Position numbers and translations under genes: made by a program. Shown here in pieces: positions 4,246 through 7,153 of a stretch of DNA of 7,153 bases (position 1 is the stretch's first letter; each line of letters opens with the position of its first letter). A model generated the notes under the pieces. That model was not told the origin of the DNA and ran no database searches. It worked only from the letters and a program-made list of their open reading frames with translations. This DNA is from a virus. Taxonomy: Duplodnaviria > Heunggongvirae > Uroviricota > Caudoviricetes. The stretch lies in IMG/VR virus record IMGVR_UViG_2547132272_000010, positions 1-7,153 of that record; one strand, written 5' to 3'.

Positions 4246-5034
4246 TTACCCCCTGAAGCCTGGCGGGATCGCACTGTCCGGCAACGAGACGGTGTTAACC
4301 TGTCGGAGCAACGTCTCAGGCCGAACACCTTTCGGCGCGAACAGGCCCTGGTATTCATTGGCGATGCTGTGTCGAATCACCTGCTCAGGTGTAAAACCCT
4401 GCTGACGGAATTTTTCCAGTTCCCGTATCGCCCCGTTAGCGCCCTGCTCCGTTCGAATCGGTTTTCGCAATGCCTGTCTGAACCGGACCCACTCATGCCA
4501 GAGTGTTTCCGGCAACCAATCGGGCAGCTCAATAGCCTCCGGCTCGAATTTTTTAGACGCTCGTTTTTGGCGAGGGGGATTTAGGGGGAGATCAGTATTT
4601 AGATCTTCCTCTTCCTCTTCCTCTGGTAACGCTTTTTGATCCGTTTGTGTAACGCCGGCAGCGTTACCTTTTCGTTTCAGTTCACGTATTTTTGTAACTC
4701 GCTCGTTTGTAACCGCCCGTTTTTTAGAGCTTTTTCCGTTATGGCGTTCAAAGTTAGGTAGAGAAAGCCCAACGTCATTTTCGACCAGCCATCCAACCTG
4801 AATTAACGCATCAGCAAAACCAGCCATAAAAGTGATGCGATCTATTGCACTTTTTGTAACGCCGCGAGCGTTACAATCTGCATTACCGTCTATCATTTGT
4901 TGATCCGCCCATGCCCAGAAGCGAATAACCTTCCCTAATGCGGCATCTGGATCAATATTCAGAATCTCAGCAAGCCTGAATATTTCCGGCTTATCCGGCG
5001 TAATAACCTCGAGCTTTATCCAGTTTGAAGCCAT
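4246..5034 (-). CDS. ydaU: YdaU-like replication initiation protein (lambda O-equivalent), two domains joined by an EEEEEE linker
   Basis: Sits between the CII-like gene and the DnaC-like loader, as O sits before P. ATG at 5034-5032 (verified), AAGGTGA RBS. Contains internal 21-bp palindromes and an acidic linker, as in ori-within-O genes. Family assignment is by synteny and memory. Confidence 0.75.
   Translation of the reverse strand: MASNWIKLEVITPDKPEIFRLAEILNIDPDAALGKVIRFWAWADQQMIDGNADCNARGVTKSAIDRITFMAGFADALIQVGWLVENDVGLSLPNFERHNGKSSKKRAVTNERVTKIRELKRKGNAAGVTQTDQKALPEEEEEEDLNTDLPLNPPRQKRASKKFEPEAIELPDWLPETLWHEWVRFRQALRKPIRTEQGANGAIRELEKFRQQGFTPEQVIRHSIANEYQGLFAPKGVRPETLLRQVNTVSLPDSAIPPGFRG
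4648..4668. repeat. 21-bp palindrome TGTAACGC-CGGCA-GCGTTAC(C), copy 1, inside the ydaU-like gene
   Basis: Read directly from the sequence. Flanked by further GTAACGC / TTGTAAC half-sites at 4626-4632, 4692-4698 and 4707-4713. Confidence 0.7.
4855..4875. repeat. 21-bp palindrome TGTAACGC-CGCGA-GCGTTACA, copy 2, inside the ydaU-like gene
   Basis: Perfect 8-bp arms; read directly from the sequence. Encodes NARGVT on the coding strand. Confidence 0.7.
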
Positions 5035-5046
5035 TTGTTTTCACCT

Positions 5047-5067
5047 TGTAACGCTCGCAGCGTTACA
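5047..5067. repeat. 21-bp palindrome TGTAACGC-TCGCA-GCGTTACA, copy 3, in the ydaT-ydaU intergenic region just upstream of the ydaU-like RBS
   Basis: Perfect 8-bp arms; lies about 13 nt upstream of the ydaU-like start codon, adjacent to the AAGGTGA RBS. Confidence 0.7.
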
Positions 5068-5111
5068 TTTAACTGATACCGAACAAAACAATCCGGCACG
5101 ATTAATTTCAA

Positions 5112-5534
5112 TCAATGCACTACGACAGAATCACCGGACGACCCACCACCGCTGAAATGTGCTTTCCGGTAAACGGCCTGGACTGCATCATCATGCGCAT
5201 CAATTGCCGTACTCAACGCTTCCTGCGCCGCCAGTAATGCACGGCGTTCCAGGGTATCGAAGATGCAGAGTCGGTGACGCAGCTCGCGCGGAAGAATTGC
5301 CAGAACCGCAGGGATCAGTGTCTGAATTTTTTCCCTTTGCGCTTTCGTTTCACCTTTTAACCAACGGTGATAGATGTTCTGCTGATTATTCCAGTCCTTG
5401 CCTGGTACCAGGGGCAATTCGCCGCCCCCCTGGCGCAGATATTCTTCAGTAATTGCATTGGCTACCCATGCCTGCCCTTTTTCAGCGGCCAGGGCTAACA
5501 GCACTGATTCGATGTGCTCATGCCTGATTTTCAT
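5112..5534 (-). CDS. ydaT: YdaT (140 aa), CII-like regulator / reported toxin of Rac-type prophages
   Basis: 140 aa, matching YdaT length; immediately downstream of the Cro-like gene and overlapping it by 17 nt. ATG at 5534-5532 (verified) with AGGAG about 9 nt upstream. Confidence 0.82.
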   Translation of the reverse strand: MKIRHEHIESVLLALAAEKGQAWVANAITEEYLRQGGGELPLVPGKDWNNQQNIYHRWLKGETKAQREKIQTLIPAVLAILPRELRHRLCIFDTLERRALLAAQEALSTAIDAHDDAVQAVYRKAHFSGGGSSGDSVVVH

Positions 5535-5793
5535 GAATCAACTCCTGTGCATTTTGTGTGTTAGCCTTACATCCAACAGGTAAACCATCGGTCGGATTCG
5601 GGTAGATATCAGGCCGGAGTTCATGAGGTGTAACCTCGAAATTCGTAGCCTCTGCGATACGCAATACCTTTTCAGGGCTTAACTGACTACGTCCAGTAGC
5701 AACGAGGCTAATCATTGATTGCGAACAACCAGCCAGCGCGGCCAAACAAGACTGTCGTACACGATTTTTTTTCAAATATTCATCTAATGTCAT
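5518..5793 (-). CDS. ydaS: YdaS, Cro-like HTH regulator (XRE/YdaS family)
   Basis: HTH segment QSCLAALAGCSQSMISLVATGRSQ and a ...TPHELRPDIYP... motif. The ORF-track start (ATG 5832) has no RBS; the in-frame ATG at 5793-5791 is preceded by AAGGTGA, so the shorter 91-aa form is called. Divergent from the repressor gene. Confidence 0.8.
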   Translation of the reverse strand: MTLDEYLKKNRVRQSCLAALAGCSQSMISLVATGRSQLSPEKVLRIAEATNFEVTPHELRPDIYPNPTDGLPVGCKANTQNAQELIHENQA

Positions 5794-5897
5794 AAGGGTC
5801 ACCTTAGTAATATTCGCCAAAATATTAACCATACTAATTTAAATGATCAATACTTATATCAGTTTGAGATTATGAGCTGTGTTCATAAGATGGTGGT
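5794..5897. promoter_or_regulatory. Divergent control region between ydaS (-) and racR (+), with two inverted-repeat operator candidates and predicted promoters
   Basis: IR1 TAATATT-N6-AATATTA at 5808-5827; IR2 TTATGA-N7-TCATAA at 5870-5888. Predicted minus-strand promoter for ydaS: -35 TTGATC (complement of 5845-5850), 17-nt spacer, -10 TAATAT (complement of 5822-5827), overlapping IR1. Possible racR promoter: TTGAGA-like -35 near 5865-5870 and TAAGAT-like -10 near 5887-5892. Confidence 0.5.
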
Positions 5898-6362
5898 ATG
5901 AGAAGAAAACGCGAAGAAATCGCATCGCCAGAAGCTACGCAGCGTCTACGCGGAATATGGGATGCAAAAAAAAGAGAGCTCAAATTGACTCAGGAGCTTG
6001 CTGCCGAGCTAATGGGCTTTGAGACGCAATCTACGGTTAGCCACTATCTCAACGGAAAGGCTCCACTTAACACTGATGCGGCATTAAAATTCGCAGTATT
6101 GCTAAGAGTTAAGCCTGAAGACTTGAGGCCTGATTTAGCTGATCTGATGAATTACGTCCGTTCATCTGGAACTTATGACGAAAGTTTCGAAGGCGAAGGG
6201 TGGCGGATGGTTAACAAGCAACAAGCTGATTTACTGGATCTTTTTGATATCCTCCCCGAATCAGAAAAAGCAAAACTAATCGAAAGGCTTAAAGGCCAGA
6301 ATGAACTCTACAAAGAAGCGTTTGAAAATATGCTGGCAGCTCAGAAACGCATGAAGAAATAG
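5898..6362 (+). CDS. racR: RacR-like prophage repressor (CI-equivalent), HTH protein
   Basis: 154 aa; HTH-like segment LTQELAAELMGFETQSTVSHYLNGK. Divergent from ydaS-ydaT, the classic Rac immunity arrangement. ATG at 5898 with stop TAG at 6360-6362, followed by an intrinsic terminator. Confidence 0.82.
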   Translation: MRRKREEIASPEATQRLRGIWDAKKRELKLTQELAAELMGFETQSTVSHYLNGKAPLNTDAALKFAVLLRVKPEDLRPDLADLMNYVRSSGTYDESFEGEGWRMVNKQQADLLDLFDILPESEKAKLIERLKGQNELYKEAFENMLAAQKRMKK

Positions 6363-6382
6363 CCCCCACTACCTCGTAACTA

Positions 6383-6407
6383 AACCGCCATCCCTGGCGG
6401 TTTTTTT
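6383..6407 (+). terminator. Rho-independent terminator downstream of racR
   Basis: Perfect 8-bp stem AACCGCCA / TGGCGGTT (6383-6390 with 6395-6402), 4-nt loop TCCC, followed by a T7 run (6401-6407). Confidence 0.85.
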
Positions 6408-6477
6408 GTCCCCTGCGCCCCCATCGCCTTACTTTTTTATCAAAAAAAACACTAAAATTTTCATTAGGATAGTACAT

Positions 6478-6540
6478 TTTTATCAACAAAATGCATATTT
6501 ATGTTGATCATCAATATGAATATAACTAATATTATTGCAG
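6478..6540 (+). promoter_or_regulatory. Putative promoter and operator for the ydaG-ydaF small-gene pair
   Basis: -35 TTGATC (6504-6509), 17-nt spacer, -10 TAATAT (6527-6532), the same hexamer pair as the predicted ydaS promoter. Inverted repeat ATCAACA-N13-TGTTGAT (6482-6508) overlaps the -35. AT-rich UP-like tract upstream. Inferred by eye. Confidence 0.35.
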
Positions 6541-6598
6541 AAGCAGCACGGCGCTGTAGGTTTTAGTTCCGCCACCCGGCGTTAAGGGGAGAGATAAG

Positions 6599-6733
6599 AT
6601 GGTGCATTACGAAGTAGTTCAGTATTTGATGGATTGTTGCGGTATCACTTACAACCAGGCTGTGCAGGCTTTACGCAGCAACGACTGGGATCTCTGGCAG
6701 GCAGAAGCCTCTATCCGCAACAACAAAATGTGA
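6599..6733 (+). CDS. ydaG: YdaG-like small protein (44 aa)
   Basis: ATG at 6599, stop TGA at 6731-6733; SD AAGGGGAG about 8 nt upstream. Translation MVHYEVVQYLMDCCGITYNQAVQALRSNDWDLWQAEASIRNNKM. Absent from the ORF track (below its size cutoff). Position downstream of racR matches Rac synteny. Confidence 0.65.
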   Translation: MVHYEVVQYLMDCCGITYNQAVQALRSNDWDLWQAEASIRNNKM

Positions 6734-6743
6734 GGTGCGAAAA

Positions 6744-6896
6744 ATGCAAAAAATCGACCTCGGCAATAACGAATCCCAGGTGTGCGGCGTGTTCCCCAAC
6801 CAGGATGGAACGTTCACCGCCATGACTTATACCAAAAGCAAAACATTTAAAACAGAAACAGGCGCACGTCGCTGGCTTGCCAGAAATACTTGCTAA
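6744..6896 (+). CDS. ydaF: YdaF-like small protein (50 aa)
   Basis: ATG at 6744, stop TAA at 6894-6896; SD GAGGTG 5 nt upstream. Translation MQKIDLGNNESQVCGVFPNQDGTFTAMTYTKSKTFKTETGARRWLARNTC. The supplied 6634..6825 ORF is in a different frame and lacks an RBS. Confidence 0.65.
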   Translation: MQKIDLGNNESQVCGVFPNQDGTFTAMTYTKSKTFKTETGARRWLARNTC

Positions 6897-7153
6897 TCCA
6901 TTATTTGGATTAATTCAATATTCTCGCTGTAGGGGTATAGCAGAAACCACCAAAGCCCGGAGGTGGTGAAATAAAACCGGGCACAACACGAAGGCGCATT
7001 TCCGATATCCATAAAGAGTCGGTCTTGTCTGTTAAATTTAAATGGTGGGAGTGCGCCTCCGGTTGTGAATAACAACACTGCTGTGTGTAGTCTTGGCGGC
7101 ATCAGTTTTTTCTTGAAGTTCGACTGATGTCCGCCCTTTTTAAAGTGAATTTT
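6893..7153 (-). CDS. 3' end of a minus-strand ORF running off the right edge; possibly a sieB-like superinfection-exclusion gene (partial)
   Basis: The reading frame is open from the window edge (7153) to stop TGA at 6895-6893, with no stop in my hand translation. Convergent with ydaF, stop codons overlapping. Identity as sieB is from Rac synteny only; the translation is not clearly protein-like. Confidence 0.3.
   Translation of the reverse strand, partial: KIHFKKGGHQSNFKKKLMPPRLHTAVLLFTTGGALPPFKFNRQDRLFMDIGNAPSCCARFYFTTSGLWWFLLYPYSENIELIQIMD

What the first reader, a model, noticed from the sequence alone, without database searches (positions are those of the whole stretch)
5794..5897. Compact immunity switch: divergent racR versus ydaS-ydaT with two palindromic operators overlapping predicted promoters
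The 104-bp divergent region contains IR1 (TAATATT-N6-AATATTA, 5808-5827) overlapping the predicted ydaS -10, and IR2 (TTATGA-N7-TCATAA, 5870-5888) between the candidate racR -35 and -10. This matches the known Rac logic, in which RacR represses the ydaS-ydaT operon and derepression is toxic to the host, and YdaT has been described as a CII-like DNA-binding protein. The two operators differ in sequence, suggesting two different binding proteins (for example repressor and Cro-like) rather than one.
Basis: partly seen in the sequence, partly recalled or inferred. Interest (0 to 1): 0.45.

Follow-up and report, generated by a model that had tools for sequence, protein, structure and literature searches.

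The report
Heteroimmune Rac-like prophage immunity switch
This is the lysis/lysogeny control region of a Rac-like prophage carrying a different repressor from E. coli K-12 Rac; one of the two reported palindromes (IR2) is a conserved operator, the other (IR1) is an accident of this sequence that partly overlaps the real operator, and the design is an ordinary lambda-type switch.

Summary
Both inverted repeats exist exactly where stated. Repeats of this size arise by chance in about a third of shuffles of this AT-rich spacer, so the case rests on conservation. IR2 (5870-5888) passes: across 22 distinct relatives its 12 arm bases never vary while 6 of 7 spacer bases do, and it lies between the -35 and -10 of a promoter predicted to start transcription at the repressor's ATG (leaderless). 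IR1 (5808-5827) fails: its left arm varies and the repeat is perfect only in this window. The conserved site is a dyad shifted 14 bp, ATATTA-N7-TAATTT (5822-5840), inside the Cro-like gene's promoter TTGATC-17-TAATAT. The same promoter-plus-dyad recurs downstream of the repressor gene (6504-6532, PL/OL-like). All sites share a 17-bp core, TATKA-N7-TMATA, so they look like one operator family rather than sites for two proteins. The "racR" label is wrong: the repressor has no similarity to RacR. It combines a lambda-CI-like DNA-binding domain with a DicA-like tail, inside a 1-kb immunity cassette (5541-6562) swapped relative to K-12. ydaT (95% identical) and its YdaT-box are retained. Verdict: a new, uncharacterised member of a well-known kind, of modest interest.

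The parts
5541..6562 (.). Immunity cassette: the block with no similarity to K-12 Rac. It holds the Cro-like gene, the OR region, the repressor gene, its terminator and the PL/OL region.
   Evidence: blastn against K-12 Rac: homology covers 5114-5540 (93%) and resumes at 6563 (94%), with nothing in between. The block is found in 75 of 5426 E. coli genomes.
5112..5534 (-). ydaT, the CII-like regulator (140 aa)
   Evidence: 95% identical to K-12 YdaT. Pfam YdaT_toxin 42.5 bits against a cutoff of 21. PHROG 163, CII-like activator. PDB relatives 8bt1 and 3c4r.
5524..5541 (-). YdaT-box. On the ydaT strand it reads TTGATT-CATGAA-AATCAG, with the ydaT ATG in the spacer. Presumed activator site for a reverse, PRE-like promoter.
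   Evidence: One mismatch to the published TTGATT-N6-AATCAA. It aligns base for base with the footprinted K-12 box ATGATTCATGAAAATCAA (PMC11879457).
5518..5793 (-). Cro-like HTH gene (91 aa), a distant YdaS-family member
   Evidence: Pfam YdaS_toxin 40.6 bits against a cutoff of 30. 42% identical to K-12 YdaS over 50 aa. AAGGTG lies 5 nt upstream of the ATG. RefSeq annotates the same start. The in-frame upstream extension to 5832 is absent or variable in relatives.
5808..5827 (.). Not a conserved dyad: the left arm and spacer lie in the predicted 5' UTR of the Cro-like mRNA.
   Evidence: Left arm 4/7 and spacer 5/6 columns variable; perfect in 1 of 22 distinct relatives.
5822..5850 (-). PR-like promoter for the Cro-like gene and ydaT: -35 TTGATC (5850..5845), 17-nt spacer, -10 TAATAT (5827..5822). 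Predicted start near 5815.
   Evidence: The exact composite TTGATC-N17-TAATAT occurs twice in the window against 0.07 expected. Relatives have TTGACA there. K-12 PydaST is TTGACA-18-TAATAT, and its start site is mapped (PMC9638921, PMC11879457).
5822..5840 (.). OR1: conserved dyad ATATTA-N7-TAATTT (17-bp core 5823-5839), lying between the -35 and overlapping the -10 of the PR-like promoter
   Evidence: Arms 0/12 variable against spacer 4/7. A match at -67 to -70 from the repressor ATG (-64 in Rouxiella L012) is present in 16 of the 17 repressor-family loci scanned; it is missing in L058. In Pseudescherichia it is a perfect 13-bp-arm palindrome.
5864..5891 (+). PRM-like promoter for the repressor: -35 TTGAGA, 16-nt spacer, -10 TAAGAT. 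Predicted start at about 5897-5899, i.e. a leaderless mRNA.
   Evidence: Promoter scan. There is an in-frame TAA at 5886-5888 and no conserved Shine-Dalgarno sequence (5892-5896 vary). The 6-7 nt distance from the -10 to the ATG is kept in relatives. Leaderless repressor mRNAs are shown for K-12 racR and CP-933P paaR2 (PMC9638921, PMC8630535).
5870..5888 (.).
   Evidence: Arms 0/12 variable against spacer 6/7, p=2.6e-4. Same register (-16 to -23) as the second operator-family match in every lineage.
5898..6362 (+). Immunity repressor (154 aa): lambda-CI-like N-terminal HTH domain plus a DicA-like helical C-terminus. No S24 peptidase domain. Not RacR.
   Evidence: PDB lambda CI N-terminal domain E 2.5e-7. 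Foldseek 1LMB, target TM 0.79. NCBIfam DicA C-terminus 35.8 bits. No similarity to RacR. The start codon is supported by 25 homologues.
6382..6403 (+). Intrinsic terminator after the repressor gene
   Evidence: 9-bp stem followed by a T-run; the stem is conserved.
6480..6498 (.). OL2 candidate: TTATCA-N7-GCATAT
   Evidence: Two mismatches to the core. It reads TTATGA-N7-GCATAT in L045. Arms vary at 3/12 columns and the spacer at 4/7. Weaker evidence than for the other sites.
6504..6532 (+). PL-like promoter TTGATC-17-TAATAT with an embedded OL1 dyad, ATATGA-N7-TAATAT (6514-6532)
   Evidence: Exact second copy of the PR composite. Zero mismatches to the core. TATGA and TAATAT are invariant while the spacer varies at 5/7 columns. 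It lies inside the cassette, 30 bp before K-12 homology resumes.

Best explanation
The region is the OR control region of a lambdoid (Rac-like) prophage whose immunity cassette differs from that of K-12 Rac.

Two back-to-back sigma-70 promoters share the 104-bp spacer. A leftward PR-like promoter (TTGATC-17-TAATAT) drives the Cro-like gene, ydaT and the replication genes. A rightward PRM-like promoter (TTGAGA-16-TAAGAT) starts at or next to the repressor's ATG, giving a leaderless mRNA.

Each promoter carries one 17-19 bp dyad of a single operator family (core TATKA-N7-TMATA) between its -35 and -10. Two more sites, OL2 and OL1, control an identical promoter downstream of the repressor gene.

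Inferred mechanism: dimers of the CI-like repressor occupy OR1 and OL1 to silence the lytic promoters. At higher concentration they occupy OR2 and limit the repressor's own synthesis. After derepression, the Cro-like protein binds the same sites, probably preferring OR2, and shuts off repressor synthesis. YdaT bound at the YdaT-box over its own start codon drives a reverse, PRE-like promoter back toward the repressor gene.

IR1 is not an operator. Only its right arm, the PR -10 and the left half of OR1, is functional.

Shown here: the sequences, their conservation pattern, their positions, the protein homologies and the cassette boundaries. Inferred: the transcription starts, which protein binds which site, and the order of occupancy.
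For: - IR2 arms are invariant while its spacer varies; the same holds for OR1.
- The exact TTGATC-N17-TAATAT composite occurs twice, flanking the repressor gene in PR/PL topology; expected 0.07, and 0 of 200 shuffles reach two.
- The core pattern with <=1 mismatch hits only 5823, 5871 and 6515 in 7153 bases.
- In nine lineages tested (repressor identity 48-100%, including a functional Stx2a phage with a LexA-type CI), family matches sit at -64 to -70 and -16 to -23 from the ATG. Both are reached in <=2 of 3000 shuffles for each lineage.
- Lineage-specific half-sites recur at all sites of a lineage, for example CGAATA in the 52% group.
- The repressor's N-terminal domain is homologous to lambda CI's. 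From prior knowledge, lambda operators have the same 17-bp TATCAC-N5-GTGATA geometry.
- The operators lie inside the swapped cassette together with the two HTH genes.
- The K-12 control shows the same OR + OL layout with RacR's own dyads.
- Experimental precedent exists in K-12 Rac and CP-933P for leaderless repressor mRNA, overlapping repressor and YdaS footprints, and a YdaT-box-dependent reverse promoter (PMC9638921, PMC8630535, PMC11879457).
Against: - No binding or transcript data exist for this module; every assignment of a protein to a site is by analogy.
- Within the window, OR1 and IR2 are only 7/12 identical in their arms, so a shared family rests largely on relatives and on intermediate sites.
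- The core pattern was written after seeing the sites, so searches are partly circular.
- The PR-like promoter scores 8/12 and was not reported by the generic scan.
- A 48-bp spacing with no clear middle site differs from the three-operator lambda and Rac layouts, so cooperativity and any PRM activation are unknown.
- In K-12, YdaS does not repress racR and YdaT also binds the spacer (PMC9638921, PMC11879457), so lambda logic does not always transfer.
Confidence: 0.72

Rival explanations
1. Division of labour. OR1 (ATATTA type) is the repressor's site, and IR2 (TTATGA type) is recognised only by the Cro-like protein or another factor. This keeps the spirit of the reader's two-protein idea but with the corrected left site.
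For: - IR2's half-site differs from OR1's by a symmetric T-to-G change, and IR2 is a perfect palindrome only in the window-type lineage.
- G-containing half-sites occur only in lineages whose Cro-like recognition helix is CSQSMIS, namely the window type and L049.
- In CP-933P, YdaS prefers the PRM side (PMC8630535).
Against: - Those same lineages also share the repressor helix QSTVSHY, so the covariation cannot separate the two proteins.
- Mixed sites exist: OL1 is ATATGA...TAATAT, L049 OR2 is GTATTA...TCATAA and L049 OR1 is ATATTA...TCATAT.
- Other lineages have ATATT-type sequences at the OR2 position.
- Known lambdoid repressor/Cro pairs share operators.
Confidence: 0.15
2. One reading: IR1 and IR2 are the two operators, bound by two different proteins.
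For: - Both repeats are perfect in the window.
- IR1 overlaps the Cro-like promoter's -10.
- A weak family-like match recurs near -82 to -84 in some lineages: TATGC...AAATA in L006, L007 and L013.
Against: - IR1's left arm and spacer are the most variable columns of the spacer, and the dyad is perfect in 1 of 22 sequences.
- A 7-nt-arm repeat arises in 10% of shuffles.
- IR1's right arm is fully explained as the -10 plus the left half of OR1.
Confidence: 0.05
3. Neither repeat is an operator. The conservation reflects promoter elements, or YdaT or host-factor sites, in AT-rich DNA.
For: - Inverted repeats are common in this composition.
- IR2's right arm overlaps the -10 by 3 nt.
- In K-12, YdaT and OxyR also bind the spacer (PMC11879457).
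Against: - Promoter hexamers do not explain the invariance of 5870-5875 and 5883-5885, which lie in the promoter's spacer next to highly variable bases.
- There is no YdaT-box match (<=2 mismatches) in the spacer.
- The same dyad family recurs at PL and in distant lineages at fixed positions.
Confidence: 0.05

Closest known systems
E. coli K-12 Rac immunity region (racR / ydaS-ydaT)
   Same: - Same prophage backbone and gene order.
- ydaT is 95% identical, with a homologous YdaT-box over its start codon.
- Divergent repressor and Cro-like genes across a spacer of about 100-120 bp.
- Strong PR with -10 TAATAT.
- Leaderless repressor promoter, mapped in K-12.
- Operators both in the spacer and downstream of the repressor gene (PMC9638921, PMC11879457).
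   Different: - The repressor is unrelated in sequence to RacR.
- The Cro-like protein is only 42% identical over 50 aa.
- Operators are TATKA-N7-TMATA rather than TAGGC-N3-GCCTA.
- Two clear OR sites instead of three, and none overlaps the repressor's coding sequence.
CP-933P (E. coli O157:H7) PaaR2 / YdaS / YdaT switch
   Same: - A short, non-S24 CI-like repressor made from a leaderless mRNA.
- A YdaS-family Cro and a YdaT acting as CII.
- Repressor and YdaS footprints overlapping both divergent promoters.
- An extra PL/OL region (PMC8630535, PMC9986795).
   Different: - No paaA2-parE2 toxin-antitoxin genes follow the repressor here; a terminator sits at 6382-6403.
- Operator consensus differs: GTTTAGTAA-type 18-bp palindromes, four of them.
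- PaaR2 did not appear among homologues of this repressor; a direct comparison was not made.
Bacteriophage lambda CI / Cro / CII with OR and OL
   Same: - The repressor's N-terminal domain is homologous to lambda CI's.
- 17-bp pseudo-dyad operators beginning TAT (lambda operator sequence from prior knowledge).
- Back-to-back PR and PRM, a leaderless repressor mRNA, OL/PL on the far side of the repressor gene, and a CII-type site over the start of the cII-equivalent gene.
   Different: - No RecA-cleavable S24 C-terminal domain.
- Two rather than three OR sites, at lambda's OR1-OR3 spacing (48 against 47 bp; the lambda value is from prior knowledge), with no OR2-like site next to the PRM -35. 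Repressor-activated PRM is therefore unlikely.
- The Cro analogue is an HTH_3/YdaS-type protein, not a lambda Cro fold.
Rac-SA53 (LT-II prophage) 'dicA/dicC' module, and Qin DicA
   Same: - Rac-SA53 carries a 70% identical repressor and a homologous Cro-like gene in the same layout, with family operators at -68 and -19.
- The repressor's C-terminus matches the DicA C-terminus.
   Different: - The N-terminal DNA-binding domain is CI-like and not DicA-like; the full-length DicA model scores 35.8 bits against a cutoff of 101.
- Rac-SA53's OR2 is ATATTG-N7-AAATAA, not the TTATGA palindrome.
CI of Stx2a phage Lys12581Vzw (organism field Lyz12581Vzw; genus Oslovirus)
   Same: The DNA-binding domain is 52% identical. 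Its cI-cro spacer has ATATTA-N7-TGATTT within TTGACA/TAATAT, and TATTT-N7-TAATA after TTGATA.
   Different: It is a full LexA-type S24 repressor of 239 aa and has a Shine-Dalgarno sequence (GGAGG) before cI, so its mRNA is not leaderless.

Membership tests
RacR (K-12 Rac repressor) | Sequence membership in the NCBIfam equivalog NF049929, or detectable similarity to K-12 RacR | tested here: not met
   BLASTP E=4.5. The window protein does not hit NF049929, while K-12 RacR scores 244.6 bits.
RacR (K-12 Rac repressor) | Operators (T/A)TAGGC-N3-GCCTA(T/A) in the spacer (PMC9638921) | tested here: not met
   The pattern occurs five times in K-12 locus L003. No such dyad was seen on reading the window's spacer; no pattern search for it was run on the window.
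YdaS family (Cro-like HTH) | Pfam PF15943 above its gathering score, positioned divergent from the repressor and upstream of ydaT | tested here: met
   40.6 bits against a cutoff of 30. 42% identical to K-12 YdaS over 50 aa. Position shown.
YdaT (CII-like) | Pfam PF06254 and similarity to characterised YdaT proteins | tested here: met
   42.5 bits against a cutoff of 21. 95% identical to K-12 YdaT. PDB 8bt1.
YdaT (CII-like) | YdaT-box TTGATT-N6-AATCAA over the ydaT start codon | tested here: met
   5524-5541, one mismatch; aligned with the footprinted K-12 box (PMC11879457).
Lambda CI-type repressor | CI-like N-terminal HTH domain | tested here: met
   phmmer against PDB lambda CI N-terminal domain, E 2.5e-7 to 1e-5. 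Foldseek 1LMB, target TM 0.79, 34% identity.
Lambda CI-type repressor | C-terminal S24 (LexA-like) self-cleaving domain | tested here: not met
   The protein is 154 aa and its only Pfam hits are HTH_3 and HTH_31. The model shows two C-terminal helices, and that region resembles DicA.
Lambdoid immunity region (functional class) | Divergent PR/PRM with operators overlapping both, and a second operator set at PL on the other side of the repressor gene | tested here: met
   by sequence and conservation only.
Lambdoid immunity region (functional class) | Repressor and Cro bind the operators and give bistable control | not testable with these tools
   Needs EMSA or footprinting and reporter assays.
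Lambdoid immunity region (functional class) | Three adjacent OR operators | tested here: not met
   There are only two conserved sites, 48 bp apart. The middle region matches the core only at 2 mismatches and varies among relatives.
DicA (Qin repressor) | Full-length match to NF007257 above its cutoff | tested here: not met
   35.8 bits against a cutoff of 101, and the match covers only residues 105-154.

The most novel reading that the evidence does not exclude
This module could be a minimal two-operator version of the lambda switch. In it, a CI-type DNA-binding domain fused to a DicA-type tail, with no RecA-sensitive domain, would work without an OR2 and therefore without positive autoregulation. 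The symmetric T-to-G change that distinguishes IR2 from OR1 would be the single determinant that reverses repressor versus Cro-like preference. Induction would then depend on something other than repressor cleavage, such as an antirepressor, YdaS titration or dilution.
Probability: 0.25. Interest if true: 0.4.

Novelty: new member of a known kind. Interest (0 to 1): 0.27.

Why it matters
The finding corrects an annotation-by-position error. Rac-like prophages carry several unrelated immunity cassettes, and K-12 results on RacR operators, RacR essentiality and C-protein cross-talk cannot be transferred to the roughly 1.4% of E. coli genomes with this cassette (75 of 5426), which include Shiga-toxin-producing (STEC) and enterotoxigenic (ETEC) E. 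coli strains.

It also gives precise, testable operator and promoter coordinates for an uncharacterised immunity type. That type shares its DNA-recognition domain with the CI of some Stx2a phages, so cross-immunity or cross-repression between these prophages and Stx phages is conceivable. Beyond that, it is a standard lambdoid design.

Tried and rejected
- **Third OR site.** I looked for one between OR1 and IR2. The only candidate is a 2-mismatch match centred at -48 (5842-5858), and it varies among relatives. Rejected as unsupported.
- **IR1 position as a weak extra site.** Matches at -82 to -84 recur in some lineages. In the window-type group these columns are the most variable in the spacer, so this is kept only as a caveat.
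- **YdaT binding in the spacer.** There is no YdaT-box match with <=2 mismatches there. Only the -35 TTGATC resembles a half-site.
- **RNA-level roles.** Rfam finds nothing in the spacer. IR2 lies upstream of the predicted start, and IR1 straddles the predicted start, so hairpins are unlikely to matter. The conserved leader at 6538-6600 shows no significant fold (z = -0.01).
- **The 104-aa form of the Cro-like ORF** (start at 5832). The extension is absent or highly variable in relatives, and RefSeq uses 5793.
- **Separating repressor from Cro-like specificity by covariation.** Both recognition helices change together across lineages, so this was uninformative.
- **Jobling 2016 (PMC4957749) on Rac-SA53.** The paper is not held.
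- **Literature on this module.** A full-text search for Rac-SA53 found nothing on its immunity region.

Full report
**Observation.** The two inverted repeats are present exactly as described. IR1 is TAATATT (5808-5814)-N6-AATATTA (5821-5827), and IR2 is TTATGA (5870-5875)-N7-TCATAA (5883-5888). They lie in a 104-bp spacer (5794-5897). On one side is a minus-strand HTH gene whose ATG is at 5793, preceded by AAGGTG. On the other is a plus-strand HTH gene whose ATG is at 5898. The spacer is only 31% GC. In 5000 dinucleotide-preserving shuffles, 32% contain an inverted repeat with arms >=6 nt and spacer 2-12 nt, 10% contain one with arms >=7 nt, and 11% contain two or more. The repeats alone are therefore not evidence of function.

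**What the genes are.** ydaT (5534-5112) is genuine: 95% identical to K-12 YdaT. The minus-strand HTH protein (91 aa) passes Pfam's YdaS model (40.6 bits, cutoff 30) but is only 42% identical to K-12 YdaS over 50 residues.

The plus-strand repressor (154 aa) is not RacR. BLASTP against K-12 RacR gives E=4.5. It does not hit NCBI's RacR equivalog model, which K-12 RacR hits at 245 bits. Its residues 12-82 are instead homologous to the lambda CI N-terminal domain (PDB E 2.5e-7; Foldseek 1LMB, target TM 0.79 and 34% identity). Its residues 105-154 match the C-terminus of DicA. It has no S24 peptidase domain.

blastn against K-12 Rac shows homology through ydaT up to 5540, none from 5541 to 6562, and homology again from 6563. 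This is a classical "imm" cassette substitution. The cassette occurs in 75 of 5426 complete E. coli genomes. Relatives occur in Salmonella, E. albertii, Hafnia, Enterobacter, Serratia, Citrobacter, Pseudescherichia and others, and in the LT-II prophage Rac-SA53, where the gene is annotated dicA.

**Conservation footprint.** I collected 93 related loci and aligned the 22 distinct window-type spacers. Overall, 38 of the 104 spacer columns vary.

| Element | Variable columns |
|---|---|
| IR2 arms | 0 of 12 |
| IR2 spacer | 6 of 7 |
| IR1 left arm | 4 of 7 |
| IR1 spacer | 5 of 6 |
| Shifted dyad arms (5822-5827, 5835-5840) | 0 of 12 |
| Shifted dyad spacer | 4 of 7 |

For IR2, Fisher's test gives p=2.6e-4 for arms against its own spacer and p=0.003 for arms against the rest of the spacer. 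IR1 has all seven pairs in only one of the 22 sequences, the window itself (p=0.36). IR1's invariant right arm belongs to a different conserved dyad, ATATTA (5822-5827)-N7-TAATTT (5835-5840). In Pseudescherichia this dyad is a perfect palindrome with 13-bp arms, CCAATAATATTAG-ttatg-CTAATATTATTGG.

**Promoters.** On the minus strand, TTGATC (5850..5845), 17 nt and TAATAT (5827..5822) form a PR-like promoter. Relatives have TTGACA at the -35. The experimentally mapped K-12 PydaST is TTGACA-18-TAATAT (PMC9638921, PMC11879457). The shifted dyad, which I call OR1, sits between the -35 and -10 and includes the -10.

The exact composite TTGATC-N17-TAATAT occurs a second time at 6504-6532 on the plus strand. 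That position is after the repressor's terminator (6382-6403) and before ydaG. The expected count is 0.07, and none of 200 shuffles reached two copies. This second copy carries the dyad ATATGA-N7-TAATAT (OL1), and a weaker site, TTATCA-N7-GCATAT (OL2), lies 34 bp upstream.

On the plus strand, TTGAGA (5864-5869), 16 nt and TAAGAT (5886-5891) form the repressor's promoter, and IR2 exactly fills its spacer. The -10 ends 6 nt before the ATG. An in-frame TAA lies at 5886-5888. The bases 5892-5896 vary and show no conserved Shine-Dalgarno sequence. The -10-to-ATG distance is kept in relatives. The mRNA is therefore predicted to be leaderless, as has been shown for lambda cI, K-12 racR (PracR3) and CP-933P paaR2 (PMC9638921, PMC8630535).

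**One operator family.** The core TATKA-N7-TMATA with <=1 mismatch matches only 5823-5839, 5871-5887 and 6515-6531 in the whole window. Across 17 repressor-family loci scanned, with repressor identity down to about 50%, matches sit at -64 to -70 and at -16 to -23 from the repressor ATG. The upstream match is missing only in L058. Two more matches lie in the PL region, and K-12 Rac has none. In each of nine lineages tested, <=2 of 3000 shuffles reach both upstream matches. The pattern was written after seeing the sites, so this test is partly circular.

Lineage-specific half-sites recur at all sites of a lineage, for example CGAATA in the 52% group. Intermediate sites link the ATATTA and TTATGA types: OL1 is ATATGA...TAATAT, L049 OR2 is GTATTA...TCATAA, and L049 OR1 is ATATTA...TCATAT.

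A functional Stx2a phage has a LexA-type CI whose DNA-binding domain is 52% identical to this repressor's. Its cI-cro spacer has the same arrangement. From prior knowledge, the 17-bp 6-N5-6 geometry and the TAT start match lambda's TATCAC-N5-GTGATA, which fits the CI-like domain and its conserved Gln44-Ser45.

As a control, K-12 Rac shows the same logic with its own dyads. There are three TAGGC-N3-GCCTA sites in the spacer and two flanking a TTGACA just downstream of racR.

**Mechanism (inferred).** The repressor bound at OR1 and OL1 occludes the two lytic promoters. IR2, which is OR2, lies inside the leaderless repressor promoter. It would mediate negative autoregulation by the repressor, shut-off by the Cro-like protein, or both, as OR3 does in lambda. 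The 48-bp spacing between OR1 and OR2 equals lambda's OR1-OR3 distance (47 bp, from prior knowledge), but no conserved middle site exists, so repressor-activated PRM is unlikely.

YdaT binds its box (5524-5541). On the ydaT strand this reads TTGATT-CATGAA-AATCAG, which aligns with the footprinted K-12 box. It presumably activates a reverse, PRE-like promoter, as shown in K-12 and CP-933P (PMC11879457, PMC8630535). Which protein prefers which operator cannot be decided from sequence, because the repressor and Cro-like recognition helices co-vary across lineages.

The switch architecture and IR2 are right. The racR/ydaS naming is wrong for the repressor and loose for the Cro-like gene. IR1 is a window-specific coincidence that overlaps the true OR1 by one arm. 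The argument that different sequences imply two proteins is unnecessary.

**Novelty.** This is an uncharacterised heteroimmune member of the known Rac/lambdoid switch family, of modest interest.

Noticed in passing
window 7082-7136 (+): DicF-like small RNA: Rfam RF00039, 42.8 bits (gathering score 48), E 1.5e-7, full-length match to the model. It lies in a segment 96% identical to K-12 Rac between sieB and kilR.
   Followed up: partly
window 5541/5542 and 6562/6563: The mosaic joints of the immunity cassette are sharp. The left joint abuts the YdaT-box and the ydaT start. The right joint lies about 30 bp downstream of the PL-like -10, where a leader conserved across heteroimmune groups begins.
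   Followed up: yes
window 6876-6921: The superinfection-exclusion gene sieB is missing. About 554 bp of K-12 Rac (L003 4926-5479, containing sieB) is replaced here by 46 bp. The near-identical strain A41 still has sieB.
   Followed up: partly
window 4608-5113 (-): The N-terminal half of the YdaU-like replication protein (262-aa ORF 4246-5034, no Pfam hit) and its upstream region have no K-12 homology, while the C-terminal half does. This looks like a second mosaic segment, possibly carrying origin or initiator specificity.
   Followed up: no
window 5845-5848 and 6506-6509: Both TTGATC -35 hexamers (PR-like and PL-like) contain a GATC Dam methylation site. The one in the spacer is part of a TGATCA palindrome. 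They are mostly, but not strictly, conserved in relatives.
   Followed up: no
window 372, 3089, 5098, 5715 (besides 5524): There are five matches to the YdaT-box TTGATT-N6-AATCAA at <=2 mismatches, against 0.72 expected (0 of 200 shuffles reach five). One lies just past the ydaT stop codon (5098-5115) and one inside the Cro-like gene (5715-5732). These may be secondary YdaT sites.
   Followed up: no
window 6543-6590 (+): The leader of the PL-like transcript is almost invariant across window-type and Rac-SA53-type relatives, and K-12 shares it from 6563. It shows no significant predicted RNA fold (z = -0.01) and has no Rfam match. It could be a nut- or put-like or translational element for ydaG.
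   Followed up: partly
window 5902-5926: A tandem 11-mer, GAAGAAAACGC / GAAGAAATCGC, lies at the 5' end of the repressor ORF. A terminator-like hairpin with a T-rich tail lies on the minus strand (5926..5908), ending at the repressor ATG. Its function is unknown.
   Followed up: no
In the window-type group these columns are highly variable.
   Followed up: partly
L011 and L014 (Pseudescherichia): In these loci the repressor homologue is not paired with a YdaS-family gene; the divergent ORF lies more than 200 bp away and is unrelated. They nevertheless carry the most perfect OR1 palindrome and two perfect OL sites.
   Followed up: no
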